From: Amphiscolops sp. MND2022 | Taxonomy: Eukaryota | DNA length: 64,000 nucleotides | Assembly (NCBI GenBank): GCA_964187785.1 | Contig: OZ076409.1 | Coordinates: 25,484,001 to 25,548,000 of the forward strand | Direction: 5' to 3' | In this document: in pieces, positions 21,001 to 45,000 of the stretch | Layout: every line of letters starts with the position of its first letter | How positions within the stretch are numbered: position 1 is the stretch's first letter | Translations under genes and position numbers: made by a program | Notes under the pieces: model-generated | Database searches by the model: none | What the model saw: the letters and a program-made list of their open reading frames with translations, nothing else | Told to the model about the DNA's origin: nothing

Positions 21001-24000
21001 TGACGTTTTTGCCGACTTCGCGCAAATTTAAAGAAAAATCAATTGGTTAGGTTTTGGAATACACACAATCTGACGAAAAACCAAATAGGTGTGTGGTGTC
21101 TTCTTGAAGTGTTCCCTTCTGAAATGGCATGACATTATTCAAAAATTGTCAAACTTTTTTTCATCAAACCTCTATGCGTTTTCATAGTGCAATAGCTACT
21201 CTTGAGTCTCAAAAATATGTCATTGCTGGAGCAGTTGGGACGGAAAATATCCTGCTGGTCAGCGGGCGTCTTGTTAACATGACTATTTGAGTGTTACGAA
21301 TGTCCTGCAATTTTTACGCGCCCTCGTAGCTTGACTACATTAAATAGTCGACCGTGACTTCTCTACCTGAGTGTGTATTCATATCTGGTTTCAAATCAAC
21401 AGATTATCGGTTAATTCATTCATAAAATGTGTTCATAACTCATTTTTCAACTGTTTTTTTTGTAGTGATGAAAAGTCGTTTTGCGCACCTGTTGATGACA
21501 CTGCCATGTCTTTCCCATGCACACACACTCACTGCACTCCCGTCTGATGACGTCACCTTTGGTGTACTCAAGTCCATCTGCGATGCAGGAGCACTGGTCT
21601 GGGTACACACACATGTTGCTCAGGGGGTACTTCAACACCATCCCCGTGGGACATACACACGCACCAGGCACTATTCCTGCAGAAAAGTAACAAGTAAATC
21701 AGAAAGAACTGGGCTCTGCAATATTTGTATATAAGGATGTAAAAAGGAGAGATTTATTGAATGAAATTGTTTTCATTCAGCAATAATTTAAGGAAACGTG
21801 AAACGTTTAAATTGGCCCGGAATCAATGTTTTGGCATTGGCGCCACTATAGTCACTCAGTTGAATACGTTATTAGTTTTTGCTCTCAATGATCTTCAGGA
21901 AGTGCAACGGAGTTATTATGCCAAACTTTGAATTCAGACAAAGAAATGAATTCGGTCTGAATTCAGTACAATTTGAAATGAGAAACTGAATGTCGAAATC
22001 AATTATCATTTTTATCTTCCGATGTATGAATTTATTACTTTGGAAGGGCCCAAATTTTCACCAAAATTCTGTTGATATGGAATATTCAACAGATTTCAAC
22101 AATTTCAAGATTTGGGCATTTTTTCGTTTAATGTGACTGAGGAAAATTTGAGAAAAAATATCATTTATATTTTTCAATTTTTGTCAGTCACATTAAACGA
22201 AAAAATGGCCAAATCTTGAAATGATTAGTTGTTTCTGTCAGATCTCAGACTCACAAATGATGCTCCCCTTGTAAAAATACTATTCGGATGGTAAGTTGAT
22301 ACGCACCATGTGGACAGACATGATCGTCAGGTGTGGTGCATGTATCGATGCAAGGAGACACGTTCTCCTTGAAGACCAAGTTGCCTGGACACTCGGAGGT
22401 ACAGGGGGGCTCCTCAATCTGACACTCGAACAGACCATTGGTGCAGGTGCTGGAACAACATACAGTATGTCTGTCTGCTCCACTCATTATCTGGGCTTGA
22501 AACAGCACTGGTCTGTTGTTTTTTGGAACACATTTCACTCACTTTTACAGCTAAATCTTGATTTGAGATTCTCAGTCTGTTGGAAAACCCTTCAATTTCA
22601 ACTAAACAAAACTTAACAAAACAATTTTAGAAGAGGTTTGTAAACTTTATGCATATTTTTTATCATTTTCAGCTGAACGTTCCAAATTTGTAAGAGTTAT
22701 TGTTAAATAATGCCTTTTCTTACAAGTTCTTGGCAAATTATTTGTGACAATTTTGCAAAACATGTAAACTTTTCCAGAAAGGGTTGTAAGTATAAACATG
22801 CAAGATTGAGCTGATGTTTTTCCCAGTGTAAAATATCTTGAAACTCGTGCCAAGAAAGTCTTTTCCTGCAAGTTCCCGTTACCTCTTCAAACCCTTGATA
22901 AGATCTTGAATTATTCTTGGACAGTTAAAAAACTTTTCTCCTTGAACCGTTAAGACTCTTATCAAGAAGTTCAAGAGGTGGAAAATTCGAATTCATCGTT
23001 CGGGCATGAAATTTGCACGTGTCACATTTTAGTACATTAGAACTGTAAATAAATCTTCTCTTACAGGGTTACCTCAATGACCCGGGTAGTATTAAGGACG
23101 CTTTTTGGCACCGCTTTTCCTGAAGCCACTGAATAGGTAGGATGATTTCATGAAGTTTTGGTTAGATTGTCATGATTTCTAGATGAAAATGGCCCAAATT
23201 TGGAGACTTTGGTGAAATAAGATCTAAAAACACTATTTTACTGGAATAAGGCCTGAAATCACTGTATTTTGGTAGAATGAGGTCTGAAAACACTGTATTT
23301 TACTGGAATAACGTCTAAAACCCCCGTATTTTGGTAGAATAGCATCTAAAATCACTATTTTGGTAGAATAGCATCTAAAATCACTTTTTTGAAAATAGCG
23401 TCTAAAATCACTTGTCTTGGGAATAATCTTCTTGGGAAAATTACTACTTCTGTGGAATAACGTCCAAAACCACTATACTTGGTAGAATAAGAACTAACAA
23501 GAGGGGAACGTCTAAAGTCCGAAAGTCTGCGCTTTATCTCAGGCTCAAAAAGATCGATCATACGCCTCCTCCTCAATAGAACGCGAATTGGATATAACTC
23601 TCTTCGGATAAACGTCAAAAGTTCGGATACAGCGCTTTACTCCAGAAACTAAGTCAAAATTTTGAAAGTATTGAAAAAAGTCATTTGTGGGTATGTTTTG
23701 AGAAAACCTAATTCCCTACTAAAAAGAGAATAATAATACAGTCTCATAGTGCCAAAACATGTTAAAAGGAGACCTTTTGGGCTTTATGAAACTCCTGTTT
23801 GTTGTAAAATATTGAAAAGTTTGAAGTGGACCTTTTAGAGACAAAAAATGCTAATAAAAGTTGCACAGTGCCGAAAAAATTCAAGGGGGGACCCTACAAT
23901 CTTGTCCCGTTTTGCATCTTAAGTTAAAAATGGAATAAATGAAAGGGGACCCTTAGCACTTACTTACATGCGTTTCCGCTTGTTGCTCCAATAGTTTAGT

Positions 24001-27000
24001 AGTTCTGGAAAAAGTGTCCACTACGCATACATTCTGTTATCTGACGAAAAAAAATTTAAAAGTTGCCACTGTTTCACTCGCGCCTATTTTCTACTAAAAT
24101 GCGCCGAATAAAAAGACTGTATTTTACTGGAATAACGTCTAAAACCCCCGTATTTTGGTAGAATAGCATCTAAAATCACTATTTTGGTCGAATAGCATCT
24201 AAAATCACTTTTTTGAAAATAGCGTCTAAAATCACTTGTCTTGGGAATAATCTTCTTGGGAAAATTACTACTTCTGTGGAATAACGTCCAAAATCACTAT
24301 ACTTGGTAGAATAAGAACTAACAAGAGGGGAACGTCTAAAGTCCGAAAGTCTGCGCTTTATCTCAGGCTCAAAAAGATCGATCATACGCCTCCTCCTCAA
24401 TAGAACGCGAATTGGATATAACTCTCTTCGGATAAACGTCAAAAGTTCGGATACAGCGCTTTACTCCAGAAACTAAGTCAAAATTTTGAAAGTATTGAAA
24501 AAAGTCATTTGTGGGTATGTTTTGAGAAAACCTAATTCCCTACTAAAAAGAGAATAATAATACAGTCTCATAGTGCCAAAACATGTTAAAAGGAGACCTT
24601 TTGGGCTTTATGAAACTCCTGTTTGTTGTAAAATATTGAAAAGTTTGAAGTGGACCTTTTAGAGACAAAAAATGCTAATAAAAGTTGCACAGTGCCGAAA
24701 AAATTCAAGGGGGGACCCTACAATCTTGTCCCGTTTTGCATCTTAAGTTAAAAATGGAATAAATGAAAGGGGACCCTTAGCACTTACTTACATGCGTTTC
24801 CGCTTGTTGCTCCAATAGTTTAGTAGTTCTGGAAAAAGTGTCCACTACGCATACATTCTGTTATCTGACGAAAAAAATTTAAAAGTTGCCACTGTTTCAC
24901 TCGCGCCTATTTTCTACTAAAATGCGCCGAATAAAAAGACTGTATTTTACTGGAATAACGTTTGTTTCAAAAATAATGTATTCAAAAAGGTTTTTTGTTT
25001 TGCTTCAGTAGAAAAACCCTCGTGTTGGTCTTGATTTCTTGAAGTGCAATTCCTTGCGGTAGTGTTAGTTTTTGGCAGGTTTTTCAGCTGATTTGTTTCT
25101 CTATTTTCAATTTGAAGTCTTTCTTTGTTTAGAGTTTTGGGAATTTTTATGCGTTTTTAGCGATGTCTTTTTACGTGGGAACCTTCGGAGGCCACGCTCT
25201 TGTCGTGGGTCCTGTCACGTGGAATCGAAAAGATTCCACTAGATTCCACTAGCGGAGAGGCTCCGAACTTAATATAATAAGGAACGTGGTTCGTACTAAA
25301 AACCCTTTTTGTGCGTTTTTTTTCGGTTGACAAAAAATCAAGTCCTCGGCAAGATCTTGCAAGATGGAACATATTCTTGGCGCTCTTGGTAAGAATCTTG
25401 GCAAGATTCTTACCAAGGGTTTCAGAGATTTGCAAGATTCTTGGCAAGAGTTTCAAGATGTTTTACACTGTGTGAAGAAAGGAGTATAGGCTACAGTTGT
25501 TATGTAACAATACAATTATTGCGTAATCATCATTCTCACCATCTCATACACCCTTCTTGGAACACATCTCCGTTCAATGTTACATTCTCGAGATGGTAGC
25601 AGTCACAAGATGACTCATCTACACACTCGTTGCGGGTTTCATCCCAGATAGTGTCACCCGGACATGAGCACCCAGCGATGTACCTGTCAGTACATTGGAG
25701 ACCTGCCATTGAGAAGCGCGACCGCTGTCTACAACTGTAGTGACAGAAGGGAGACTTCTCAGTGTACGACATCTCGTCATTGGGGCAACTTTGACCGCCT
25801 ACAGAAACAGGTATCAAAACTTTTTATGAATATCCAAACAGCAAAATTTGTTCTTAAAGTCAAAAGAAAGTTTTTGAAATCGATTTAGTGTCTCTCAATA
25901 CAAAATTTCAAGAAAACACTGGAAACGATGAGCGAGACAACAGAACTTTAATTATTTCCCAAAACATGTCGAACAATCAAGCACATTGTCAATTTATACA
26001 GTGAAGCAAAACAACTTTTGAAACGAAATGGGGAAAATAAAGGTGTTGAACAGTTCCCCCTACAAAGAAGGTTGATGACTCATCAGAGAAGCACAGCAGT
26101 CAGTTATCATGAATGAGTATTGAAGGACGAAAAAGGCCCAAAACCAGAAACAAACTAGTGCAAAAGAAAAACTATGATACGACACGTTACGGCATTACAG
26201 TGCCAAAAGTGGGTTAGCACATTTTTGTGCTATTAAGTTACTGAAATCCACTGGCATACATTTAAACATATAAATCACTAAATCACTTATTTTCACTGGA
26301 TTCCGTTGTGGCCTGTTTTGGATTCCACTAACATATGTAGCTAGTGAACAAAAATGCGTGCACCGGAATCCACTGCTTTTCACTGCCAGCTGAATTGAAC
26401 CAATCGCGTCAGCTTATTTCAATTTTCAGCGGAATCCGCTAAAAATTACAGTAGATTCCACCTTGGCTTACAGTGGATTCCACTTTGGCTTGCAACCGAA
26501 TCAATTTTGGCGCACAACCGATTCAACTTTTTAACTTGTGGAATCGAATGTAAAAAGAGCGGAATCGACAGTAAGCCAAAATGAAATCCATTACGCGGTA
26601 AGAAGGGTTTCGTAATCAACTCAAATCTTATAAAATCCAGATTTGAGCGCTCAAAGCCACTGCAGCGATCATTGAGCGTTTAGTGGAATCCACTGCAGCG
26701 TCTAATGGAATCCACTGCAAGATTCGCATGTTTTGGTTGTGGAATGCACGCAGTGAAATCCGCTGAAAAGAAATGTGCCAAAAGGTGAAATCGACCGCTA
26801 CGTAATAGCATTTGTCAGTGGATTACAGCCTTCCGAAACAGCTGTTCACCGAATTACACTGCAAAAACTCAAAATACCCACGTTTTGCACTGTAATGGGT
26901 GATGATTAAAGAAAAACAAGGCGAGAGGTTCTTCAAATGGTCGCAAAAAACTGGACACTAGTGAGATCCGAACTTCATTATCCTTCTTTGAAAGCAAGCA

Positions 27001-30000
27001 TTTTAACCACCAGGCCAACTGGAGTCTCGAGGCCAACTTTCCGATCAGCAGCCGCCTTATTCAATTTGTCGCGTTCGAGTCTGTCAGTAGTGAATGTGAA
27101 GTAATTAAACACAAACGTCAGTTTAAATTTAAAAAAAAAACGAAAATATGGATATCGAAAACCACTGTATAGTAAACCCACTCGGCGTATTTGCGTTGAA
27201 AGTGTCTTTCAATGCAATCGGTCGGGCAAAGTTGCTGGTTAACGAGGCAAGATCAAGGTTTGATTAAGTGGTATACGTCTTGTTCTTCTATGAAAATTCA
27301 TGTATAACTTCAAATTGTCAAACAAACAAGATGCTCCAGACAAGACACCATGGGTGGGAAAACAGTGTTTTATAGTCAAGTGGCAAAAGTACTACAGGAA
27401 CAATTGCGGCACCAAATGAAGTAAGAGACACAGTTATTTTTGATAATCGAAAAACAGTTTTATTCAAGTTAAACGTCAAAACCACAGAACATAAAGGAAA
27501 CAGTTCCGATTCAATTCGCAAATTAACGAAAGTCTCAAACGAGGATCCTCTAAGCTCGCCTTGGAATATCAAAATCTTTGAAAAGTGTTCTTCTGTTTAA
27601 AAACCTTTGGAAAAAGGCCAGAAAACAAAGCTTTTGGTCCAGCACGGGACTCGTACCCAGGTACCCGCAAAGAAACTCACTCGCCACTCCAATAATCTCG
27701 CTTTGAACTCTAGGCCAAATGAAAAGGACTTTTCAGTGCATCTTGTAGCTAATGGCACATTTCGGTGAAAGCTTCTATCAAATTTTCGTTCTAAATCTAA
27801 AATTTTTCGTTACTTCTGAAGAAAGTGGAAAATACCAAAAGGATTTATAAAATCTTGGAATGAACAATTAGAATATCTGTAAAGGCACCCTCTGAGACAG
27901 CAAAATCAGTCGACATTGGAATTTTGGAATTGTGACATGTTCAGAAATTTTGTCAAAAATTCTAATTCGATGTTTGACGTGGCACTGAGCATGTGATTGC
28001 TCTTTTCGCTGTTTCAACGAAATTGGCAGGTACTTCGACAACAAAGAGCAAGATCGAGAAAAAACATAAGGCCAGCCGCCCGAACAGACGCCAGAGACTG
28101 CAAAAACCTCTGAAATTAGACTTTTTCGAAGGTGCTAACCTTGATTTCAGCAGTATGCTACCTTAAGTAGCGAAAACCGTAAAAATGAGTCTTTTCGTCT
28201 AATTCTCAAATCTGTGCCTGTGGTGACCCAGCTTGCGAGCTGAATGTGGATGTTGCCAAATCGCTGTTGTGGACGAGATTGCTGCATATTGTTGTAAGTT
28301 TATGGCTATTTTGACAATTTTAGATCTTATTTCGTAATTTTAGATACTGCCAAGTCACCCTGAATAACGAAAATTTAACATAATTTCCTTTTGGAACGTT
28401 TTTAAAGGCTGTCTAAGTGTTGGTTTCGAAGAAAAAGCGTAATGCGCACTACTGATAGCAATTACAGACTGGATCAGGCCGGCGAGCACTTCACAAGAAG
28501 CGGAATCCTCCTCTGACGGGACAGTTTTTACCCGAAAGAGGCAAAATGAGCTCATGGTCATGGGCGCCTGTCCCGGGCAAATACCCATATCATGTGTTCC
28601 TCTAACTCTTATGGTTACGGCGACAATGGTGAGAGCTTGTCGTCACATAGAGACATCATTTTTTGGCGACCACAGAGGGATCGCTTCGAAGTGCTTCCCT
28701 TAATGGTTTTAAAAGAGCCGACCCTCTGGTGATTGACGCCAAGTACGACCTGGCTCTGGTTGGAGAAGTATACGCAGAGTTTTCCTTCATTTTTTAAAGT
28801 TTGATGTATTGACAGGTTTACTGTGGCAGGTTTTCTGTCCGTTTTTCAGGTGACTTTCCCAAGTACCGATGGTTTATTAGTAAACGGTATTTGTTGACAG
28901 GTATCGTCTAAAATTGCAAGGTTCCCATCAGCGGGTCCTCTTTTTAGAAGCGTAGTGGACAGTAGCACGTCGCTACTGGTGTTTAACAGGTTTTCTAGCT
29001 GTTTTCAGTGATTTGCGCTTATGTACGAGAGGTGAAATTGATGGTTGAACCATGTTCCATCCGATTGATAGATGAGCTGAAACGAGTGTTCCCGACTCTC
29101 CTTTCCCATTTCTCGTGGAGACGTCCTAGAGGGATGGTTTTCGGTGAATAGGTAGAACAAGTGCTGACGTTGCCGACGGTCCCAACCGTTTCTCTCTAGC
29201 TGGTCTGGGTGTTGAGAAAAAAGTCGGCGAAGGTACCACCCCTCAGTCCAGAAGTATCAATTTTTCGGAGTATGGTATGAAAAAATTTTTCGATTGTGTA
29301 ATTTTTGAAGGGGAATCGTTTGCTCATGCTAGTTTTTCCTTGTTGCAACTTAGTGTGTGCTTTTGCAGCCGTTTTCAGTGAGAAAAGTCCGATTTTGGGT
29401 GCAAAAGTAGCAAAAACGTCAATTTTGGCATTTTTGAGTGTTTTTCTTGGTACGAGCGCGAGCGCTCGAGGTATTAGTCACAACAGTTGCAAAAATGTAT
29501 GGGAAGTAGCCCAAGACCTCTAGGGTACTATTACATGATGTATTGTCCACCAGAAAAGGCGTTGGAGTCCCTTTTTGGACGCATTTTGTATGAAAAAACT
29601 CGATTTTTGGCGAAATTGGCAAAAAACCACTATCAAATGCTACCTGAAGAATGCTGGATAGCACTGCAATCGCCTCTTCTGTGCTGCTAAAAGCTTGGGG
29701 CACCTTCCACGGCACAGAAATTAACGTTTGAGTAGGTTTTTTACGTTTTCATAACAGAAAAAATTTGAAAAACCTTGATTTTTGGCCAGTTTCAGGAGTG
29801 CCAGAGTGCATAATTAAAACCTCTAGGGCACTTAGTGTTTTCGAGTCCTGGGAGCCTAAGCGCTCTCATTTTCTGTTTATGTAATAAAATTAACGCATTG
29901 TGGTGAAAACCGCACGCAAAAATTCCTTTTCAGTGCTGAGAAAAGTTGAAAAACGTTGATTTTTAGTCTGTTTCAGGAGTGTCTCAGTACACAAATAAAA

Positions 30001-33000
30001 CCCCCTGGGCACTCTGTGTTTTTGTTAGCTAAGAGCTTTCGAGCTCTCATTTTCTGTTTTTACAATAAAAATAACGCATTGTGGTGAAAACCGCACGCAA
30101 AAATTCCTTTTCAGTGCTGAGAAAAGTTGAAAAACGTTGATTTTTAGTCTGTTTCAGGAGTGTCTCAGTACACAATTAAAACCCCCTGGGCACTCTGTGT
30201 TTTTGTTAGCTAGGAGCCTATGCGCTCTCATTTCCTGTTTTTCTATAAAAAATAACGTGTAGTGGTGAAAACCGCACGTAAAAACTCCCATTCAGTGCTG
30301 AGAAAAGTGGAAAAACGCACTGAATTTGATCAATTTTCCACAAAACCGGACTGTCTCTGAGCTAGGGTCGGGTCATCGATTCCTGAACCCTAGCCAAAAA
30401 GTGGTTGCATTTTCGTAACTACCACTAAAATTAACGTTAGTGCCGAAAATTTGGTGAGCGTATCGGTCACCAAAGTCGAGAAAAGCTCTCTGACGTTTCG
30501 ACTTCGGAGAAGCGTAAGAGGACCGAAAAAATCCAAAACTGCAAGACTGTCAGTGCCTTATACCTAATGGGCACCACCAATTGAGGGTTGATCCCAGTGC
30601 TACGGATAGCGAGGCAACACGTTGATCCCATTTTGCCCGCCGTATCACTTTCTGAGGTGATCCTCTTGGTCAATTTGTGAAAAAAGTTGTCAAAAACAGT
30701 GTTTTTTCGAGTGCAAAGTCCATCTTGGGTCGAAACCTTAAATAAGCGCTCGCGCTTCAATTCGACCATATCAGTGGCATTGTAGGTGCCCACTGGCATA
30801 GACTACCAAGTTTAGTGCCAATCTGCGTGATACTTGTCGAGAAAAAGGGAAAAACGTGGCACCCAAAAAGGTGCGCAAAAAGGCAGTTTTTTCTTAATTT
30901 TTCCAAGTAACCCGGGCACCTTAGCCGACGGGTGGGGCTATATTACACCCCATCATAGTAACCTGTGCTAGTTTCTACGTTGTTGCAGAGATTTTGAGCT
31001 TCCTAGCTCTTTCCAGTTGACCGTAGTCTTGAAAAAGACGTGAAAAACAGTGTATTTCGGTACATAGTGGTACCGCACGTCTGTACCTAGGTGAAACTGT
31101 GTAGAAGCGGCGCAGCTCAAAACTGTTTTCTCTTTCGCAAACCTACGTGTACTTAGGATTTGCTGGTCTTTTTTGGGCTTGATACGGCGCTTCCAGCACA
31201 CACACGAGCCTCTTGAGTGTTGTGGTGCGATTTTTGGAAAATCCAAAAATTCTTTGAAATTCTTCCTGTGGGTGACTGGAGACTTTTTGCCCTAAACCAG
31301 GTTAATTTTCTGGCCCAGTGTTCTTGTGGGAAAGCGCTGTGCAAATTTGAACAGCCTACGAGCCTTAGAACGTGTTTTGAAAAATCTTGGACGTTGAAAA
31401 ACATCAATTTTCTTAAGTCTTCACCGAGACGAGCAGAGGTCCAAATCCTTGAGGAGACCCCCTACAAGCCTACCAGCGTCTGTTTCACTATTCTTACAGC
31501 GTGGTTGGTGCCCACTGGCAGCGCCTGCCAAGTTTGGGATCAATTGGTACTGTATCTGTTGAGAAATTGACTAAAACGAACTACACAAGAAGGTGCGCAA
31601 GAAGGCGAATTCTACGAAGTCTTGTGGGATTGCCTGAACACCCTATTCAAAGAATTCGGCCAAATTGCTGCCCACTATCGTAACCAGTGCAAGTTTATCG
31701 TATTGTTGCCGAAAAACGAGCGTGAGCGCTCTTTCCAGTTCGCCAGAATCTGGGTTGACACGTGAAAAACAGTACATCTTGGAACACAGTGATACCGAAC
31801 GTCTGTACTGTGTTGAAACTTCACCTAGTCATCTCAGCACAAATCAGCTAATATTCCCGTGTACCTCAACTTACGTGGGATTGTGTGGTTGATTTTGAAG
31901 TCGATCCTGCGTTTCTAGCGTTAGCGCTAGCCACTTGAGTTTTTCTCAAGTGAATCTGAAAAACCCAAAAGATATCTGAAAAACCTCTGACTTGTGACTG
32001 GATCCCAGGACCCAATTCTGGACTCACTTACTGGGTCAGTGCATCAATCCAGAAGTGTTGTATACTTTTCAGCACGCTACAACCCTTGAAACTAATTTCG
32101 ACTCCTCTTGGACGTGCATATTCATTGTTTCAGTTCAAGGGTCCACCGAGACGAAAACTAGGAAAGTGGGAAAAAAGTCATTTCTGCGTGTTGGAAACCT
32201 GTAGAAACCCCTAGTTTGACCTCCCAGTAGTTCATTCATTGCTGTGCGTTTGATATTTGATCAGTATCGAGTGGGCTGCCTTGCTATATCATAGCATTTT
32301 GTTACTTGAAGTGTGATATCCTGTGTATTGTAACGAATTGGATCATTTTTTGGAACTGTCGGCGCACCTGCTCGGAAAGTTGGGATTACATTGCCCTGGA
32401 CTATTCTTATTGGTGTCAGTTGGTGCACCGTTACCGAAAAAGTGAGCTTGAGAGCTCAGCACTGTGGACTAGAGTCTTTGGTTGCACGTGAAAAACCGAG
32501 TCAATTGAGATACGGTGATACGGCAAGCCTGTACAGCATCTGCAACTCATTCAACAGTCTGAGCCCCAATTGCTTCTCGTTACAGTGTACCTGGCTATAC
32601 GTGGGGCCGCTTGGCCAATTTTGAGCCCGATCTTACGTTTCCAGTCTTGGTACGAGCCACTTGAGTAATTTTCTAAAGATTTTGAATTTTTCAAAAATTG
32701 TTAAAAAACACTCTAGCTTGTAGCTGGAAGTAATTATCAGCCTCGGTAAGTCCTCTTTCCAACTTTTGTAACTGAAGAAACGTGCTGTGCAATTTTCTAC
32801 CTAGTACGTCTGATAAAACTGATTTTGACTGTGCCCAGGCACGCATTTTGGCCGAAATTCCGAAAAACCGTAAAAAAAAACAAAACAGAAAAACTCAGTA
32901 CTCCCACTATACGGAAGGCAGAGACCAAAAGCCTTCATTTTCTAACCAAAGGGACCTAGAAGGCCTTCCTGGGTGCAAACGAGGCAAATCCCACGGTTCA

Positions 33001-36000
33001 AAAAAATTGCCGGCAGGGGTCATAAATTTTGGACTCCTCTGAGACTTTGAAATTTGCTGCTGAAAAGCCCAATTCAGCAATTTCAAGTGCCTGCGACGAA
33101 CTCTGGACTACATTTTCCCAACCGAAAACCTGTATATATTACGCTGTGAGCCTGAGCAGGGTTTTCGATATCCAAAGGAGACCCTGAGGATTCCCACTTA
33201 GTCAAAATTACGAGATTTTGAGAGGAGCAACCTTCTAGTGACACTATTTTGACCGGCTTGCCCGAGTGTGAAGCCTTTGTGAACACTCTGGTTCCTCTAT
33301 TTGGTGTTATTCAGCAGTATCGAGTAGCACAAGCACCGAATATCACGTCAAATTTGCAGAGAACTCTTTTGGGTAATCACAATATACCCGAATCCATCGA
33401 GGTTGAGAGGTCACTAAACCACTCGACTGTCTTTTTGGTGCGCACTATCCAACTTGGCTGCAACAATTTGCTCGAGAACAACATCTTTTGGCCCACTGAG
33501 CAGCTTGCAAAGCGTTGAACAGTTTTCAGTCAGCTGTGATTGCTAGAACTTCCCTTGACTTTGACCCTGACACTTAATTTGGATACACAGGTGGTTCTAG
33601 TGAAGCAGTTCGGAATCTCGAAAGCTGAAATGAAACGTTGGAAAGTCTTCCACCGCCTGCGTTCCTTTTTCAAAGGAAAAGAGGGTGTCAATGCAGCACA
33701 ACCAATTAATGTTCATGATGTTCAAACTCAAAATGAATCCCCAATGGTAGATGAACATGACCGATCGACGAAGTTAGAGGATTTGAAGTTGGAAGATTGG
33801 CCTTTGGAGGATCGTTTCAAACTTTTCTCCGATTTTCTAGACTCAATGCCATCTAAAACTCAGGATACCGAACCGGAGATTAGCATAAAGACTTCCAGTC
33901 CTAGTTCAGTATCGTCGTCGAAAGGTTTCCCTCTCCATGAAACCAGTATTCAGACTTATCAGAAACAGGATCAACAATTAGACGCCCTGGAGCAGCAGAT
34001 GGATGAATTATCAATCTTGTTGGCACAAAATGAGATACGTAGGAAGAAATTGTTAGCACGAGTGCTAGCACAAATGCAGTCGATAAATGCAGATGTGCAA
34101 ATACACCTCAGAAGTGCCACTATCAATATTTCAAACGACGCCGAAGCAGAACCAATGACACAGCCAACAAAAGACATGGGGCTGGAACCAATATCTTTGG
34201 ACACCACAACCATGAGTATTGCTGACACTTTGCCTGAATATCACGCCGGTGACAATGGGTTGCTCGAGAGCAACCTCTACTCAAGTGATACAAAAAATGA
34301 ACGAATATCAGTCTCACCCTCCCTTTCCTTATCGCAGGATTCTGTAAGCAACTCTCACTTCCTTGGAACAAATTCCCTATTACTCACTTCGCAGTTGCTG
34401 CCGAGTTTGCTGACAAATTCTATTGAGCCAACTTCTGCTGAACGTGGTCTACAGGATTATATTCAGGTGGACCAGCCAATCTTTATCAAATGGTTGCATA
34501 GTGGTTCAACCAAACCTCGACCGACTGGACATAGACGTGGTCGACCACCGCGGACTTCTGGTGAACTCTCATGGTATGAAGTTCTGCTCTCGTTTCATCA
34601 TAGACGTCGCCGCGGCCGTCCACCACGCTCAGTCTTCCTACTACCATGGTCGCATCGACCGAAGGGACATAGGCGTGGCCGACCTCCGAACAATTATCAC
34701 AGTCTTGAGACAGACCCAGCCCCAGTTTTCTTTATTGGAAGTCCTGATATTTCATGCTTTTTGTATGGCCTGCTGCTATCGAATAATAATGCCTATCCAC
34801 AACCCGAGCTACACTCCATTTCTTTTCAAGGGGGGAGGAGGTGTCATCAAAGCTCAACTTATCATTCTGCAATTTTTGTGTCGGGCATTCAAGTTTGTCT
34901 ATTCCTCGCTATCCTCATATGAAAAAGACTGCTCATCGATTAAGGCCTGAGGAGTCGACTAAAGTCCGGGGAGTCCCATGGAGAGACAACACTCTATTCT
35001 CTACATTCCACGCTGACCACCCACGGAATTTGCCACAATCTAAAGTGATGAAATCCTGACCGCACATTACTTTCAATCGATTCTGATGTATACAATCACA
35101 GCTTGATATAAAAACTTTGTTTTTTTTTTGTTTCTCGTAAAATTTTATTTGATATAACATTTTCAAGGCTATCCGCGAGGCTTAACAAAAAAACAAAAAA
35201 AAACAAAAAAAAACAAAAAAAAGAAACATAAAAGTCCTCGTCAGTGCAACTTTGGCCAGATGCTTTTTCTTATAGTTTCTTCTTTAATTTCATTATCTCT
35301 ATAGTTATACTCCTTGAAGTTTCAATGTTAATTTTCTTTTGATTCAGTGGCTTTTCTACAGAAAAACTAGTTTAATGGAGCTCATTAGCCCCGAAATTTT
35401 CAATTACAGAATCTTGTCTATTTTTGTCTCAGTGCTAAATCTCACATGCAGTCAGTTGGTAAATCGCTTTTCATACTCTCAACGGATGCTACTGATTTTT
35501 GTTTTGTTATGGAGCTCCACATCAGTGCGTGCTGCCCAAACCTAGCCAAACCTTGAACAAAAAATATCAGAAACTACCTGTTTTCCTTTTAAACAGTGGT
35601 TTTTCCGCTGAAAAGAAGTTTTACTGAAAACAAGTTTTAACTGTTCTGCAAACTGAATTTTTACTGGCGTAAAAAAAAGTTTTAAAAAAAACGCGCCAGG
35701 GAGCCCCAGGGCTTCAAAAAAATTTCTTAAACCACATAAACATCAGTGCTATCAAGATCCTATCCAAATTTAGTACAAAAAACTTTGCCAATTGAATGAT
35801 GCTCTCAGATTGATATATAGATTAAAGATTATGATTTGTTTGATGGTGCATTTTGAGTGCTCGTTTTCTAGCCCCAGGGCTTGCTCCAGTAACAGCAGCC
35901 AGTGAATAAAGCAGGCTCGATAGATCGCAAGAAACAAAACCTCAATATTGCCCCAAACAGCAAAAGATGATTGTGACACAACTCCGATGCAAAATCACCA

Positions 36001-39000
36001 GTTTGAACTCCCACTCGATTTCAATGATGATGTGGAGATGTTTCAATGCCAGCTTCTCCGCATGACAGGGACGTCATGCATAAAGTCCGGGGAGTATGTA
36101 ATGGCACCCTCTGAGACAGCAAAATCAGTCGACATTGGAATTTTGGAATTGTGACATGTTCAGAAATTTTGTCAAAAATTCTAATTCGATGTTTGACGTG
36201 GCACTGAGCATGTGATTGCTCTTTTCGCTGTTTCAACGAAATTGGCAGGTACTTCGACAACAAAGAGCAAGATCGAGAAAAAACATAAGGCCAGCCGCCC
36301 GAACAGACGCCAGAGACTGCAAAAACCTCTGAAATTAGACTCTTTCGAAGGTGCTAACCTTGATTTCAGCAGTATGCTACCTTAAGTAGCGAAAACCGTA
36401 AAAATGAGTCTTTTCGTCTAATTCTCAAATCTGTGCCTGTGGTGCCCCAGCTTGCGAGCTGAATGTGGATGTTGCCAAATCGCTGTTGTGGACGAGATTG
36501 CTGCATATTGTTGTAAGTTTATGGCTATTTTGACAATTTTAGATCTTATTTCGTAATTTTAGATACTGCCAAGTCACCCTGAATAACGAAAATTTAACAT
36601 AATTTCCTTTTGGAACGTTTTTAATGGCTGTCTAAGTGTTGGTTTCGAAGAAAAAGCGTAATGCGCACTACTGATAGCAATTACAGACTGGATCAGGCCG
36701 GCGAGCACTTCACAAGAAGCGGAATCCTCCTCTGACGGGACAGTTTTTACCCGAAAGAGGCAAAATGAGCTCATGGTCATGGGCGCCTGTCCCGGGCAAA
36801 TACCCATATCATGTGTTCCTCTAACTCTTATGGTTACGGCGACAATGGTGAGAGCTTGTCGTCACAATCGAAGCAGCAAATCTGTCTTTGAATGTGTGAT
36901 GAGGAATGAGAATTTGGAGCACGTTATCAAAACCAGTGAGATCGTATACAAAGACACATTTGCAGAAGCATAATTTACTATATGGAAGCTATACATGTTT
37001 AAACCACGCACTTGCCTTTTAGGACCCCTTAAAGTTTGATGGTCGAACTATTTAGAATTTTGCTTTTATGTTTTGATATTTTCATTATTTTCCGCCATAT
37101 TCCGTATTGAAAAGGAACATAACTAATTCCTTTTACCAAAATTTATCATGTTCCAAATTCATCTCCAAAAAGAAGGACTTCACCAATGGAACTCGACTGA
37201 AATAGTTGTTTTCGTGCGATACGTATTTGTAGAGATTTTGGAATTTTTTGGTTGACCCCAAATCGACTTCAAAATGGCCTAAAATGACCCCAAAAACAAA
37301 AAATATCCAAATTGTATCAATTTTGTGCTGTTTTTGAGAAATTTTTCGAAAATTGCGTGGGTTTTAAACGTTGGAAACGTTTAAAAACGAATTTACGCAT
37401 TTCGAGGATTTTCGAGTGTTACAAGGCTCAAACCGTTCAACGCCGAAACAACTAGCTTTAAGGACATTTTTTTGAAGAGGAAATTTCAGTATTTGGCTGC
37501 GACAACACCTCAGGGTTACCCCAGAAAAATCAGTAAATTCCAATTTCTGCCATTTTTGAGGACGTTTTGTGCAAAACTAGAAAAAGTTCAAAGATTAGAA
37601 GGTTCAAAAAGCTCCAGAAGAAAAACAGCTACGCAGTACGCTTTCGAAAGAGAACTTAACCGTTTCTGGTAGCCAAAACCTCAGAAGATCCCGAAACAGT
37701 CAAAGAATCCAAAGTTGTTCTTTCTACGATTTGGCGTTTTATGCAACTTTTTAAAATTTAAAAGATTTTTTGTGTCATAATGGTGAAAACGTTCAACAAC
37801 CACTAAACTTTGCATGCAGTCTGCTTTTTTGAAGAAAATCGACAATTGTGTGTTGAAAATGTACCCCAAATTGATCTCGAAATGATCGAAAAACTAAAAA
37901 AAATCATGTGTTGATAAACAAAAATACCAAAAGTTTCCAATAGGTGACTTTTTCAAACTTCGTAAACATTGATAGATATTGTGCGAGTTAGATTATTCGA
38001 AAAGTTCAACCACAATTGAACTAGTTATCCGGAACGGTTTCGTGAAAAGATATTTGTAATTTCGTGTTTGCAGAGTGCGTCAAATACACGCCCGTTTGTT
38101 TTGAAATATTACTCTCAATTTTTGATAATTCATAAGTTTTTCGTTGATAAAGTCTTTCCTTGACCTGATGGTTGAAACTTTGGGCATTTTCATTGCACTG
38201 TTTAGAAAAGTAGGATTTTTGTTAGAAAACTTTCGTGAAAGTGACAACAAAAAACTCAAAATTTTTGGATAATTCCCAGTTTTGATAACGTAGTCCCAAT
38301 TTCGGCCAACTTTAGAAAGTTTCCCTAAATCAGAAATGAAGCAGGCTGTACGTACAATTCCTTTTTTCCAATCGTTTTGCTAAGCCTTATTTATTGTTTC
38401 AAGGATTCGGTAGATATAAAAATTCGAAGAGTTTGAAGACGCATTATTTAAATTTTCAGCTTACTTTCACAAAAACAAATCGTTTCTGCTTTTCTGTCAC
38501 GAAATCCCCAGGAAGAGTAAACAAGCCGGGAACGGCCCAAGTCGACGCCATATCCAAGGCTCAAAAATAGCAAAAGGACTTCGAAGTGTCAAGTATTCTC
38601 TCCTACAGTACCCGCATGAGGAAAAAATTGAAAAAAAATATCGATTTTTTTTCAAAGTTTTTTTTTGGTCCGGTAAGTCGCATAGTGGCGAAAAATGTAA
38701 AAGGGGACCTCAAAAAAGCCTAATTAACCTCTATCGCAAGTGCCAGTAGAAGTAGTGTGGCATTTAGTGTTAGTTCAAGTCAGCTTATAAAGCTTATAAA
38801 ATCTGCCACTTCGTTGGTCTTTTAAAAAAAGTCACTGCAATAGTCTGCGTTTTCTACGAAAAGCGCCGACTAAAAAAGTTAGAACTCGGTAGTTTGGATT
38901 TTGTGCCAGCGTTTACGGCGTGTTTGTGATTTTTAAACAACTTTTTGCTGTGATTTTCTACAGTGCTTGAAAAATCGCTGCTTAAACGCTTAGTTTAGGA

Positions 39001-42000
39001 AAATTGATTTTGTGTATTAGAAAACCGGAACGAGCCCATGTCAAAAATTGTCAACATATTTGTTTTTTTGAACAAATTTAACGATTTGGGTGGGAAGATC
39101 CAAGTTATTGAAAAATCAGCCACTTGTTCTACTTTTGCATTTGAGAAGAAAAAAACTCGCTCTTGAAAATTTGTGTAAAAGGAACCAATATTTCCAGTTT
39201 TGAGGACCATGGTATTTTGGTTGAGGCGTTAGGCCTGTGTTAGTGAGAATTCAGATTCGAATGCCTCTCAAATCAGCAAAATTGGATTCCTAATCTCTAG
39301 CTTAGTGGAAAGAACGAGCAATTGGTGGAGAAAACTAAATTGAAGATACAACAACGGCAGTCAAACTCTTGTGACCCAGAGCGAAATTGACAGCTTCAAG
39401 TCAGCCATCAGTTCAACGCGTGGCTATAACTATGGTGCTATAGCTTGCTCCAGTGAAATGGTATCGAGACGTGTACCAAATTCAATAGTCAGAAATGTTC
39501 CAAACGCGCACCTCGCGTATTTCGGAAATTGACTTTTTCTTCTTCATTCTCAAATTTAGACTGTTTTGACATTTGGATTGCATTTTTTTGAAAGCTTACG
39601 TGGGTTCTGGTATCCACACAGTTCAACAACAACACAATTGGTACTTAGTGTTCGATAGTGCATTGGCCACTCTTGAACCTCAAATTTATTTCGTTGCTAG
39701 AACAGTTTGGGACAGAAAATATCACACTGGTCAAGGGGCGTCTTGTTATAAAACTATAAAAATTATTAGGATTGTTTTAACACAAAATACGGCATATCGA
39801 ATACATTTGACCAACCGCAATTAGTCTCATTCAACCATGTATCAAGAACGGATGAGTCATCGAGGAACTGTGCGCATCTGTGGGCGTAGGCTGCGAAGGC
39901 AGAGCACCGGACGGACCGGAAGATGTCTCGGTCTACGTTGGTGTTGGGGCTGGTCATGGGGTAGGAACAGAAATCGTATTTGCACTGGTACCAGTAGTCC
40001 ACTGGCTCTAAGTGGCTGTGGCACTCTGCAAAGGGACCAGTGGAAGACATGAGGATGTTGCAGTGGTCATTGACTTGGGGTTCTCTAGAGAAACATATTC
40101 ATTTGTTAGTACATCACTAATTCAATATGCTTGAAATTTTTGCTTTTATATAGCATGGCTTTGTAAAATTCTAACAGAGACTCTCAAAATTGAATTTTTC
40201 CTCCTGCATTAAACTTTTACAACGATGGAAGATGCAGTGTAGTCCTAAAAACATTCCCATGCAAGCTTCTTAAATTTTCATTTATCTGTTTCAAAAAATC
40301 AGATTGCATGCATGCCTGCAACATGTAAAACTTTCTAGGATCGTCGTTAATTAAGTAATCAATTAGAGCATCTGATCACATTAAGGATATTCGCAGCATA
40401 TAATTTTTTTGTCCTGAATAGAAGCAAGTTTTTTCCAATCCGAGTAAGTATAAACGCTCACATTTCATAAAACGGGATCAAAGACATTTTTATTGTCAAT
40501 TGCCAGTTTTCAGATAATCTAATAAAAACATCCTGGGTTAACACTTTCTTAAACTGCATCAACCATAAGGACTCCTCAAACAACTCAAGTTCTAAGAATA
40601 ATGCACAATATACTTTGTATATAATTATATAACCAAATCTACCCACAGTATGAATACATGGTCGCATGGTGTTCTGACTGGGTTGTAGTCGCTGTTCGAC
40701 TGGGGGTTGTAGCAGTCGCAAGTTTCACCCACTGCCCAGTCACTGGCAAATGTGGCTATGTGTGCCTCCACCATCTGGTTGCGCAGTTTGAAGTCATCCG
40801 AGGGGTGGTTGTTGTAGTATCCACACAGACCAGAGACCTATAGATCCAATCACAGTTCAAACCATTTACTATTTACAAAAAGCATTCATTGTAATCTTTT
40901 TTCCTTACTTGTTTTCTTTTTTTTTCAGATGAACAAATGGTTTTTTGTAAAGGTATTTATTGCATCGATTGCATTCATTGATAGCAGTAATCGAAGTAGG
41001 GTTTCATTGTTTTTTCTGTGTGCTTTTGAAGTGCATTTTTGAGAGACATTTTCTCGTAATATATAAGAAGCATTTGAATCGGACGTTTTTATTCATTTTC
41101 CCACTACTGAAAAGTGACTTGAAATTTCTTTCACTTCTTTTGAACTGAATTCATTTGTAACTTCGAAACTAAAATTGAAATACAAAGAGACAACAACAAA
41201 GAGACGACTTAAAGTAAGCGTTTAGGGTTTTAATTTTAAGTTCTCGAAAAGGCCCACCAAATTGGCATAGAACGGGTTCAGATGAATGTAGATTTGAGAT
41301 ACTCGGTCGTAGAAAATTTTCACAGCTGAGTTTTCAACTATTGTGAACTCGGTTGAGGCTCGGTAAACATGAATTCCTTCGACGCTGAAACAAAAAACAC
41401 TTGCACTTATAATTAAAAAAAATCAAAGTGGAATCAAAAGCATTCAAGTTTCAAGGGCAGATTTTGTTTAGAGCCAGGAAATTTATGCTGGAAAATTAAA
41501 TCAACACGTTCACATAAAAACTTTGTCGATCTGAGAATATTCATAAATTGAATGAAACCTGTGGAAATATTCGTTTTCTGTGAATGGGATTCCGTTCACT
41601 GATACATCGTGTCCATTCAGCACAATTGTGTGGGGATTTCCTCCCAACACTCCTGCTAGTTTGATTTCCAGGGACTTGGTGCATCCGTATGGCACGTGGG
41701 GGTCCGCGCAATGTGTCTTCATTATGATCTCTATCTCTTTGTCAGTCGGCTCGAAAGTCTAAAACAGGTTCAGCTTTTCTGTAACCCTGGTGGACACCCG
41801 GATCCAAATTCATAAGTCTTCCATGAGATTCCATGCATGGAACCATATGGTTCCATACGATAATTTCATGCCGTTTCAATGCATGGAATCGCATGGAATC
41901 ATATGGTTCCATGCATGGAATCGTATGGAATCATATGGTTCCATGCATGGAATCGTATGGAATCATATGGTTCCAAGCATGGAATCGCATGGAATTATAT

Positions 42001-45000
42001 AATTGTAGGCATGAAATCGGATTGAATCATATGGAAAACGAAGGAACCCACTGTAATGACATCTGAAAATATCGAAAACATTAAAAAACATCTAAAATTA
42101 CAGGAAGAACCACTAAAATAACATCTAAAATTACTGAAAGAACCACTGGAACAAGATTTGAGAACAAAACGATATCACAGCAGAAAATGTCAGACTCGGT
42201 TCCAAACTGCAAACATAGTTTGCAGAAGCTGAAAACCCAAGTCCTTATGCCTAACAGTTTGGAAGCACTCCAATTTTCCAGTTTTATTGTATCGTTTTCC
42301 GTTTTACAGTTCGAATCAAATCAAATCCAGTCGTTTTCCAGTTGTTTCCGGAAAGTGACACGCAAGTAGAACGAAAATTTGTATTTTCGAGAATTTCGAA
42401 TTTTTGCTTTTCGTTCCATACCTCTCTATGCATGGAATCATATGGTTCCATGCACTTCCATGTATGGAATCATAGGATTCCATGCGTGGGATTGCATGGA
42501 AGGTCTGTAGGTCATGGTTCCATGCATGGAATCGTATGGAATCATACGGATCATATGCTTCCATGCATGGAATTGCATGGAAGCCTTATGAATTTGGATC
42601 CGGGCATGTAAACCAAACTCCATTGGTTCCAGGATCCTTTTGTGGCTTTCTTTGTTCAGGATTGGCTGAACTGGATCGGCTTTTTTCGAATGATTGAGTA
42701 AGTAGATGAGTCAAATTTAAAAAGTGAATGAGTGTGAAAAATCCAGGTACCAACCGAAATTGCTTATGACGTCTCAGGAACGACGTTAAGAAACAAAGAA
42801 AAACAAGTCCAAATGGCCTTGTGATTTAGAGCTGTTACGTCCGGATGACAAGCATTTTGTTACTCAGTTATAAAGTAACCGGTATCTTGGGACAATTAGG
42901 CTCAGAAGGATGAAAACGCACTAGTAAACTAGATATGATGAGAATTAGCTTTGTATACGTTCTAGTAAAAGCTACTTTTTCTTTTAAACAATCTTCTCAT
43001 TTTACTAAGGGAACATGAGAATACGACAGACCTAGGCTATCACGTCAATTACAATGCCAATTGCTTATTCCATGAGGTATTCGTCCTTTCTGTCCGTAGA
43101 TTCAAATAATTCAACTTTTGAGTGGACTTATTTGGGATATCTCACCTGAACTAATACATAGTCACATGTCCCAGGGTACTGGTAGGTTAGCCCATCGAAT
43201 GTCTTGAAGTGGGAATGACCTCTGACCTCACAGACTGAGTGACAGATGTAGTCAGTGCAGTTCCAATAACCGCCCATGCACACACTGAGCACAAAAAAAA
43301 ATGTTTTTGTTTCAATGAAATAAAATCTTTTTTGGGTTGTTATTAAAAATACAAATCTCTCAATTTTGCACAAAATAGCAGTTTTAGAACAGGAATGATA
43401 GAAGTAAAAAAACTTCAAGTCTTCAGGTTAAATGATTAGATAACCCGATAGCTACTTTTTTCAACCCACTGTTACTGTTTCTGAAAAAACCAGCGAAAAA
43501 CAAATATTGAAACAAAAGTTGTATTGAAAAGATTTATGACAGTGGTTTTATTTATATTTCGTACTATCTTCTTACAAAATTTCCAGAATTCTAAAGATTA
43601 AAATACGCTGATGATGATTGACCCCAAATTTCTTTCCCAAATTTCTTTCCCCAAATTTCTTTCCCTCCAATTCAATTACATGAGAAAAATAACACGGTCA
43701 TTTTGAACGAATTATGCATCAATACAAGAACTCAACACTTGTAATATACTTAATACTCGGAAAAATTCGATTCATAAAATGAAGTTTTTTCCATGCGTTT
43801 GTATTTTGCTCACTTAGGCTTTAAAATAACTGAAAAATAATAAAAATAAAAGTTTCGAACCAGGTGTTACAGTCCACTTGAATGGTATCATTTGTGACGT
43901 AAGACTGCTGGTCGTAGCTGCATGAACACATTCCTTCGTCCACACAGTTGCCATTGTAATCCAGGAACTTGCCCTCAGGGCAGAAACATCCAGGGTTGCA
44001 TTCAAGGGTACACACTTCTGGGGGGCTGTGTAGGTTCATACAGGTGGGTACGCATGAAGGACCACAATCGAGGTATTCGAAACCCACGGGACACGATTTA
44101 GCTGAAATTTCAAAAAGGGGTAATTTATAATAAAACTGCAGATTTGAATGAAATTCCAGTTTGGAGCTCGATTCAGAAGCTTGTATCTTGAGCGCAAAAA
44201 CTGGGACATTACTATAATTGAAACTAAACCTTTTGGTCAAGTTTCACTACTTTTCCAAATTCTCATCACAAGAGAAAATTATCAGTTTTCTCTGTTCTAT
44301 GTTAATATCGTATCTTTAAAAAAGGTAAATTTAATTGTAACATTCTTCAAAATTACAGAAGAGAGTGTCGTTAAGACAGAAGAGAACGCGATGAAGACGG
44401 ACAAGTTGTTTCGTGGATCTTTCAAATCGAACCAAAAATCTTTTCCGCAAAACTTCGAGTTTTTTAAAAAGTTTTATGTTGATGGTTAAAAAAACCTTTT
44501 AGCGCCTAGTGGGACTTTTCTATTAAATGTTTTCGTAAGCAGCCTTTAGCATATTTAAAAGACATTTTACCCGCTTTTTACCACTTTCCAATAACTTGTT
44601 TTACTCACGGCAGAAATGTTGATTCCTCCAGGAGTGAATGAAGTGGCCCACTTCCGAGCAGGAGAGCGCGAATGTCTGGAACGTGTTGCACACGGCCCCT
44701 TCCACGTTGTGGCCTCTGTCCACTGCCAGACAGTACTGGTAGATGCAGTTGGCCACCGTCTGCATTGCGCAATAGCTACTCTGCAACAAACACACACAAA
44801 ATTGCGCTATTGCAACAAGGGTGGGATAACATAGACATCGGAGTGATGTTTTGGCATTTTAAGGTTCTGAAATTCATCATTTTGATTTTCTACTTTCAAA
44901 AGTGTAATTTGGCTGATGTTTTTCTTAATATAAATTTTCATTACATTAAAATGGACGCGAGAATGCTGGAAACCAGTGTTAGTGATAATAAATATTCTCG

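What the first reader, a model, noticed from the sequence alone, without database searches (positions are those of the whole stretch)
27878..36866. Young LTR element with no gag/pol that carries one intact orphan ORF
Seen: LTRs differing at about 4 of 770 positions (recent insertion), a PBS, a purine tract, and 7.4 kb of interior with no RT, integrase, protease or zinc-knuckle motif, yet one clean 430-codon ORF. Known: LARD/TRIM-type elements are mobilised in trans and are usually non-coding. Inference: this is a satellite-like retroelement that keeps a protein of its own, perhaps to exploit a helper element or modulate host silencing. It is the best candidate for an undescribed system in this window.
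Basis: partly seen in the sequence, partly recalled or inferred. Interest (0 to 1): 0.85.

Follow-up and report, generated by a model that had tools for sequence, protein, structure and literature searches.

The report
Hitchhiking retrotransposon keeps capsid-less Gag head
This is a young, abundant jumping gene that lacks its own copying enzymes, is pieced together from two complete relatives in the same genome, and keeps only the front end of the shell protein joined to three conserved basic motifs that likely help its own genome get carried by the relatives' machinery.

Summary
Observation confirmed; 'orphan' refuted. The 8,989-bp element (770-bp LTRs, 4 mismatches, tRNA-Arg PBS) belongs to a non-autonomous family of at least 494 copies. 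Residues 1-270 of its ORF are 70% identical to the N-terminus of a ~3,050-aa Gag-Pol of an autonomous Gypsy family (A) in the same genome, collinear with the element; capsid, protease, RT and integrase are missing. The last 249 bp of the LTR and the PBS region are 95-100% identical to a second autonomous family (B), so the element is a two-helper mosaic. The Gag head drifts (dN/dS about 1, against 0.08-0.22 in helper capsid, protease and RT). Yet the frame is kept open (stops p=0.002, frameshifts p=0.0025), the 3,060 nt before the start codon hold no ATG (42 expected), and two of three RRGRPP boxes that could be tested are under purifying selection (dN/dS about 0.2). Best reading: a translated, capsid-less mini-Gag whose AT-hook-like boxes act on the element's own RNA or DNA (inferred, about 50%). 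All three families make 3-bp target duplications. Expression and binding are untested. New variant of Gag-only non-autonomous LTR elements.

The parts
27875..27877 (+). Left copy of the 3-bp target site duplication (right copy 36867-36869)
   Evidence: exact 3-bp duplication here and in 16 of 24 family copies examined; none showed 4-6 bp
27878..28647 (+). 5' LTR, 770 bp, mosaic: about the first 325 bp 82% like helper A, last 249 bp (from 28399) 98-100% like helper B
28664..28681 (+). Primer-binding site complementary to tRNA-Arg(TCG); the same PBS in both helpers; 28648-28794 continues the 93-97% match to helper B
29746..30317 (+). Tandem array of 3.1 copies of a 181-bp unit; homologous array in helper A, part of it in helper B
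30570..33629 (+). 3,060-nt stretch with no ATG on the coding strand, ending at the ORF start; contains decayed ~720-bp duplications
   Evidence: 0 ATG against 42 expected; 29 on the other strand; next-longest ATG-free gap in the window is 516 nt
33630..34439 (+). ORF residues 1-270: pre-capsid N-terminal head of Gag ('unit A'), with a predicted long helix at residues 102-162
   Evidence: 70% aa identity to helper A N-terminus; three motifs in the same order in helper B Gag; low-confidence model
34440..34727 (+). ORF residues 271-365: three RRGRPP boxes (34533-34550, 34608-34625, 34671-34688), AT-hook-like (label recalled); source not found in either helper's DNA
34728..34922 (+). ORF tail (~65 codons) from sequence that lies just after the gag-pol stop in helper A; frame not conserved among copies
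36082..36096 (+). Purine-rich tract before the 3' LTR; its GGGGAGT core is shared with both helpers; a second copy at 34961-34974
36097..36866 (+). 3' LTR

Best explanation
The element is a non-autonomous Ty3/Gypsy derivative, built from the body of helper family A and the LTR end plus primer site of helper family B, whose single gene keeps the capsid-less head of Gag joined to three conserved RRGRPP boxes that likely bind the element's own RNA or DNA and so would help it be packaged or integrated by helper proteins. Shown: the structure, the two helpers, the origin of the head, selection on frame openness, on the ATG-free leader and on the boxes. Inferred: the RNA is co-packaged with helper RNA (the U5/PBS swap is what template switching inside a shared particle gives); the first ATG after the 3-kb leader is used; the protein acts in cis; the drifting head is a spacer or weak helical contact to helper Gag. 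Untested: expression, binding, which helper is used today.
For: Origin: the 'longer' search returned 3 proteins with ORF residues 1-270 in frame before a Gag capsid-like region, 2 of them reaching an aspartic protease. In the genome these are ~15.7-kb elements with one ~3,050-aa frame, in the order protease-RT-RNase H-integrase, and the capsid region scores 0.93-0.94 to Retrotrans_gag/Ty3_capsid clusters. Helper B: 16 of 20 fetched hits of the window-type LTR/PBS junction were a second autonomous family; 19 of 30 B LTRs match the window's last 249 bp at 98.8-99.6%. Frame: in 62 of 69 copies picked by a 20-mer (7 poorly aligned dropped), 5 of 382 shared codon variants are stops against 4.0% expected (p=0.002; shifted frames 16 of 368 and 19 of 361, not significant), and 9 of 12 shared indels are in frame against 13 of 50 in flanks and tail (p=0.0025). 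44 of 69 have an ATG-started frame of at least 300 codons through the boxes. Chimeras with other N-termini join in frame. Leader: 0 ATG in 3,060 nt; 96 ATG against 400 CAT in 43 copies under 85% identical. Boxes: in 79 copies, variants shared by 3 or more give N/S 5/10 at boxes 2 and 3 against 193/66 in the head (p=0.0014). Both helpers carry RGRPRGRPP motifs after integrase.
Against: The head is unconstrained: dN/dS 1.23 (0.73-2.20) between two subfamilies and 0.89-1.63 by segment, 0.89 in the helix. Only 43 of 69 copies keep residues 61-125. One young copy with 99.5% identical LTRs and a 3-bp duplication has lost the whole ORF (L242), so the protein may not be needed for every hop. 25 of 69 copies lack a long frame. 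The box test rests on 15 shared variants, and the box limits were set by eye. No Pfam AT-hook hit; the model has mean pLDDT 36. Some 'shared' variants may be recurrent changes or segmental duplicates (L122/L123).
Confidence: 0.5

Rival explanations
1. Only the act of translation matters: a long open frame after an ATG-free leader keeps the RNA stable (escape from nonsense-mediated decay) or routes it to particle assembly sites, and the protein itself is inert.
For: dN/dS about 1 over 270 codons together with depletion of stops and frameshifts; N-termini are swapped freely so long as the frame is kept; the tail is read-through sequence.
Against: Excess synonymous change at boxes 2 and 3 and between the boxes (dN/dS 0.21-0.44). 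The three boxes differ at 6, 3 and 6 nucleotides yet encode the same six residues (the motif was chosen because it is identical, so this is only suggestive).
Confidence: 0.27
2. The ORF is a neutral relic of helper A's Gag start, kept open only by youth and by repeated recombination with helper A.
For: Helper A and non-autonomous heads are interleaved on the tree (at least 3 label changes); LTR pairs are mostly 99-100% identical; close copies evolve neutrally.
Against: The box region is absent from helper A and cannot be refreshed from it, yet it is the best conserved part. Non-autonomous subfamilies 11-25% apart keep the frame. Simulated neutral change of 3-8% would add 5-12 ATGs to the leader.
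Confidence: 0.1
3. The protein acts in trans as a dominant-negative or regulator of the helpers, like truncated Gag restriction factors (Ty1 p22, Fv1; recalled, not from a call), limiting or tuning helper activity.
For: It is a Gag fragment without capsid; its helix motif is shared with both helpers' Gag heads; at least 494 copies could supply it.
Against: Both helpers are abundant and young (257 RT-pattern hits; 595 B LTR hits mostly paired 18.5 kb apart). Known Gag-derived inhibitors keep the capsid part (recalled), which is the part lost here. The selection seen acts along transposing lineages, which fits a selfish benefit.
Confidence: 0.1

Closest known systems
TR-GAG elements of plants (PMC8704663, passages read; PMC13570524, passages read)
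   Same: Two LTRs, one ORF derived from gag, no pol, mobilised by an autonomous relative.
   Different: TR-GAGs encode a full Gag with the Gag domain. Here only the pre-capsid head is kept, it drifts, and the conserved part is an added triple RRGRPP region.
Zebrafish BHIKHARI Bik-1/Bik-2 and chicken ENS-1/ERNI (PMC12067270, passages read); mammalian MaLR (PMC5538554, passages read; the MaLR ORF is recalled)
   Same: Animal non-autonomous LTR families that amplify while keeping one gag-derived gene; Bik-1 Gag ends in a putative glycine-rich nucleic-acid-binding patch.
   Different: Bik Gag keeps a folded capsid domain and is retroviral. This protein has no capsid, is predicted mostly unfolded, and its helpers are Ty3/Gypsy retrotransposons.
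LARD/TRIM non-autonomous LTR elements and chimeras formed by template switching (PMC13570524, passages read)
   Same: Large internal region without pol; LTR and internal modules reshuffled between families.
   Different: It has a maintained coding frame, and both donor helpers are still present and young.
CERV of C. elegans Cer1 (PMC10309623, abstract read)
   Same: An LTR-retrotransposon protein other than capsid or Pol that acts on the element's own genomic RNA: an analogy for the proposed function only.
   Different: CERV belongs to an autonomous element and comes from a spliced mRNA; no homology was tested or is claimed.

Membership tests
Non-autonomous LTR retrotransposon | Paired LTRs with TG...CA, PBS, PPT and a target duplication | tested here: met
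Non-autonomous LTR retrotransposon | No capsid, protease, RT or integrase | tested here: met
Non-autonomous LTR retrotransposon | Autonomous partner sharing cis signals | tested here: met
   Families A and B share the PBS, LTR termini and PPT core
Non-autonomous LTR retrotransposon | Mobilisation in trans shown by experiment | not testable with these tools
   Inferred from at least 494 dispersed copies and near-identical LTR pairs
TR-GAG | Single ORF derived from gag | tested here: met
TR-GAG | ORF contains the Gag (capsid) domain | tested here: not met
   The match to helper Gag stops at residue 270-275; the capsid begins near residue 350
LARD | Large (several kb) internal region without pol (definition recalled) | tested here: met
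   7.4-kb interior
LARD | Non-coding interior (definition recalled) | tested here: not met
   Frame under selection
TRIM | Small size, under about 1-2 kb (definition recalled) | tested here: not met
   8,989 bp
Ty3/Gypsy (helpers A and B) | Domain order protease-RT-RNase H-integrase after a Gag capsid | tested here: met
Ty3/Gypsy (helpers A and B) | Usual 4-6 bp target duplication (PMC2253517, passages read) | tested here: not met
   3 bp in A (5 of 6), B (5 of 5, read by eye) and window-type copies (16 of 24 examined); a usual trait, not what defines the superfamily
Ty3/Gypsy (helpers A and B) | Placement in a named RT clade | not tested
   No reference RT set was fetched
AT-hook proteins | RGRP core flanked by basic residues (motif recalled) | tested here: inconclusive
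   Core present three times and conserved; no Pfam hit at E<=0.1
AT-hook proteins | Binding to AT-rich DNA or to RNA | not testable with these tools
   Needs a binding assay

The most novel reading that the evidence does not exclude
A satellite retrotransposon has turned the disposable head of Gag into its own cis-acting adaptor: a capsid-less mini-Gag with three AT-hook-like boxes, translated after a 3-kb AUG-free leader, that loads its RNA into particles of two different helper families. It changes helper by capturing the helper's U5 and primer site, in a Gypsy clade whose integrase leaves 3-bp duplications that standard 4-bp-minimum annotation misses.
Probability: 0.35. Interest if true: 0.75.

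Novelty: new variant of a known kind. Interest (0 to 1): 0.52.

Why it matters
How non-autonomous LTR elements win a place in helper particles is open, and most are treated as non-coding. Here parasite and two living helpers sit in one genome in hundreds of young copies, and selection splits cleanly: strong on frame, leader and three short boxes, absent on the rest of the protein. That makes 'is it the protein or the act of translation' directly testable. The 3-bp duplication matters in practice: LTRharvest settings of 4-5 bp minimum (PMC2253517, passages read) would drop these families. The 3-kb AUG-free leader points to an unrecognised way of expressing Gag. Ten literature searches listed no paper whose title or abstract start describes this combination; only six papers were opened, in part.

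Tried and rejected
Orphan or captured host gene: rejected. The one diverged database relative checked (P0092) is encoded at 100% identity in this genome; the other 325 were not traced. The head matches helper Gag. Envelope or known fold: no Pfam hit, no PDB sequence hit with the family profile, no usable ESM Atlas hit; the AlphaFold model had pLDDT 36, so no fold search was run. Source of the RRGRPP region: no DNA match in helper A; only weak low-complexity similarity to the post-integrase region of helper B (E about 1e-5, composition correction off); none of 366 long-protein candidates scored. Whole-profile search of the head against helper B Gag was not significant (E 12; best domain 4.2 bits); the three-block test that passed used blocks picked by eye afterwards, and one control block reached 10 of 1000 shuffles. 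Direction of head transfer: the tree nests helper A heads inside non-autonomous ones, which suggested capture by the helper, but it is midpoint-rooted and helper B shares the head motifs, so an ancestral Gag head with later exchange is preferred. Homodimer prediction of residues 95-175 gave no answer. No RNA holder was listed. No Rfam match. The first tRNA pattern found nothing; a looser one did. One alignment script timed out. Earlier-findings look-ups near the place and by sequence were empty. My notebook figure of 13 of 20 helper A copies lacking the head was miscounted and came from a sample chosen for lacking it; corrected counts are in the full report.
Full report
Observation. The element spans 27878-36866. 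Its LTRs are 770 bp with 4 mismatches. The PBS (28664-28681) is an 18-nt complement of a tRNA-Arg(TCG) end encoded in this 1.07-Gb genome, and a purine-rich tract lies at 36082-36096. The ORF 33630-34922 (430 aa) has no Pfam hit. No capsid, protease, RT or integrase remnant is found with either helper's proteins as query. The window is G000:C1:25484001-25548000.

Family. A DNA search scored 40 of 1,207 candidates, at 93-100% identity. Of 29 close copies analysed, 24 have no stop or frameshift. An exact 20-mer from the RRGRPP region has 494 matches, a lower bound. LTR pairs of 21 copies are 97.3-100% identical. A diverged database protein used as a query is encoded at 100% identity in this genome.

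The ORF is the head of Gag. A search for longer relatives returned 3 proteins. In each, ORF residues 1-270 (65-70% identical) run in frame into a Gag capsid-like region, and in two of them on into an aspartic protease. In the genome, 37 of 10,545 candidates were scored, and 9 are listed with a frame of about 3,050 aa. Six fetched copies are about 15.7 kb long and collinear with the window element from LTR to 34439 and again from about 34795 or 35414 to the 3' LTR. They carry protease, RT, RNase H and integrase in Gypsy order, and the region after the head resembles Retrotrans_gag/Ty3_capsid clusters (0.93-0.94). I call this helper A (257 hits of an RT 20-mer). The head is not essential to A. 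On contig C1, 21 of 25 RT hits were examined: 5 have the head 20-mer upstream and 16 were fetched because they lacked it. Of the 21, 12 have lost nearly all of the head and 9 keep part or all. The last ~65 codons of the ORF align (68%) to sequence just after A's gag-pol stop, and their frame varies between copies. The middle, residues 271-365 with three RRGRPP boxes, has no DNA match in A or B.

Second helper. An exact pattern across the window's LTR end and PBS had 37 matches. Of 20 fetched, chosen because they were not in the top-40 ORF list, 16 were another autonomous family, B, and 4 were non-autonomous. B is 19.2 kb, has 735-bp LTRs, is 59-73% identical to A in protein, and has about 300 mostly full-length copies (595 LTR hits). 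The window LTR is 79-91% like A and 54-63% like B over its first 300 bp, then 99-100% like B and 65-77% like A near its end. All 30 B LTRs sampled carry this type of end (19 at 98.8-99.6%, 11 at 91-96%), and 6 non-autonomous and 5 B ends are identical. So the end came from B, and exchange is recent. Template switching between co-packaged RNAs is the established way to make such chimeras (PMC13570524, passages read); co-packaging with B is therefore inferred. B's Gag head holds three motifs of the ORF head in the same order (0, 0 and 5 of 1,000 shuffles; blocks picked by eye), so the head is probably ancestral in the clade. A tree of 50 heads shows at least 3 switches between A and non-autonomous labels.

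Selection. Amino acids of the head are not constrained: dN/dS is 1.23 (0.73-2.20) between two non-autonomous subfamilies and 0.95 against A. The same method gives 0.69-0.81 on non-coding controls, and 0.22, 0.21 and 0.08 for A's capsid, protease and RT. Openness is constrained. In 62 of 69 copies picked by a 20-mer (7 poorly aligned dropped), 5 of 382 shared variants are stops (4.0% expected, p=0.002), while two shifted frames show no deficit. In-frame indels make up 9 of 12 shared events in codons 1-357 against 13 of 50 in flanks and tail (p=0.0025); private indels are 10 in frame and 11 not. 44 of 69 copies have an ATG-started frame of 300 codons or more. Several lineages have replaced the N-terminus, in some with A's own short Gag start, and stay in frame; residues 241-290 are present in 69 of 69 copies and residues 61-125 in 43. 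In 79 copies, boxes 2 and 3 have dN/dS 0.25 and 0.21 and the linkers 0.44, against 0.89-1.63 in the head (5/10 against 193/66, p=0.0014; box 1 left out because it was the search pattern). The counts at the boxes are small.

Leader. The 3,060 nt before the start codon contain no ATG (42 expected; 29 on the other strand; next-longest gap in the window 516 nt). A's Gag leaders are ATG-free for about 2.7-2.8 kb in 5 of 6 copies. The deficit persists in diverged non-autonomous copies (96 ATG against 400 CAT in 43 copies), and simulated neutral change of 3-8% would add 5-12 ATGs. The 21 leader ATGs all lie before 30570, so an internal start or a splice acceptor near the 181-bp repeats is a reasonable guess; it is untested. 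B's leader shows no such gap in the one copy scored.

Target site. Exact 3-bp duplications flank 16 of 24 window-type copies examined. Of the other 8, 2 had one LTR in the stretch, 5 had ends the script mislocated, and 1 is tandem. They also flank 5 of 6 A copies and 5 of 5 B copies. The usual length is 4-6 bp (PMC2253517, passages read). Two searches for 3-bp duplications in Gypsy elements listed 2 and 0 papers; I saw only the listings. The shared length fits use of a helper integrase.

Mechanism. The most likely reading (about 50%) is a translated, capsid-less mini-Gag whose basic boxes act on the element's own RNA or DNA and improve packaging or integration by helper proteins. Both helpers carry similar RGRP motifs after integrase. 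Against it: the head drifts, one young copy has lost the ORF (L242), and there is no expression or binding evidence. The main rival is that only translation matters (27%). Neutral relic (10%) and trans inhibitor (10%) fit less well.

Comparison. It works like TR-GAG (PMC8704663, passages read) and BHIKHARI-type elements (PMC12067270, passages read), which are non-autonomous and keep a gag gene, but it fails their capsid criterion. It is too large for a TRIM and too coding for a LARD (definitions recalled). PMC13570524 (passages read) argues these classes blur; PMC5538554 (passages read) confirms MaLRs as non-autonomous; PMC10309623 (abstract read) gives CERV as a functional analogy. No supplements were read. 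Verdict: a real feature, a new variant of a known kind, interest 0.52.

Noticed in passing
L243:3004-7659 (helper B, after pol; also L244-L247): Helper B carries a second frame of 1,478-1,551 codons after gag-pol in 5 of 5 copies, with no Pfam hit. Earlier notes on this genome describe an SGNH-like accessory ORF that may be the same; not checked.
   Followed up: partly
helpers A and B, and window 27875-27877 / 36867-36869: The whole clade makes 3-bp target site duplications rather than 4-6 bp.
   Followed up: partly
window 30570-33629, and helper A leaders (L091, L094, L097, L100, L106): A 2.7-3.1-kb stretch free of ATG on the coding strand directly before the Gag start; it suggests an internal start, splicing or very long scanning.
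   Followed up: partly
L092:3-7313 (helper A polyprotein): About 950 residues follow the integrase core, with RGRP motifs and no Pfam hit; A shows no zinc-knuckle hit whereas B does.
   Followed up: no
window 49963-55917: An unrelated Gypsy element with 189-bp terminal repeats (99% identical) and gag, RT and integrase split over four frames; strong AT skew over 50-56 kb.
   Followed up: no
G000:C9, from 57537790 onward (L110): A tandem array of tRNA-Arg(TCG) genes at ~174-bp spacing; the pattern has 256 matches genome-wide, and 99 of the first 100 listed are here. It is the primer tRNA of this clade.
   Followed up: no
G000:C1:34050201-34106595: Five helper A RT hits at ~14-kb spacing; the one fetched (L206) has a 3' end running into an LTR upstream, so this looks like a head-to-tail array.
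   Followed up: no
window 4141-4210: A 70-bp fragment 74% like the LTR end, probably an old relic of the same clade.
   Followed up: no
window 23287-24961, 41875-42590, 58951-59971: An ~824-bp near-perfect duplication with 29-31-bp repeats, a 32-bp minisatellite, and an element with 123-bp inverted ends built of 16-bp repeats.
   Followed up: no
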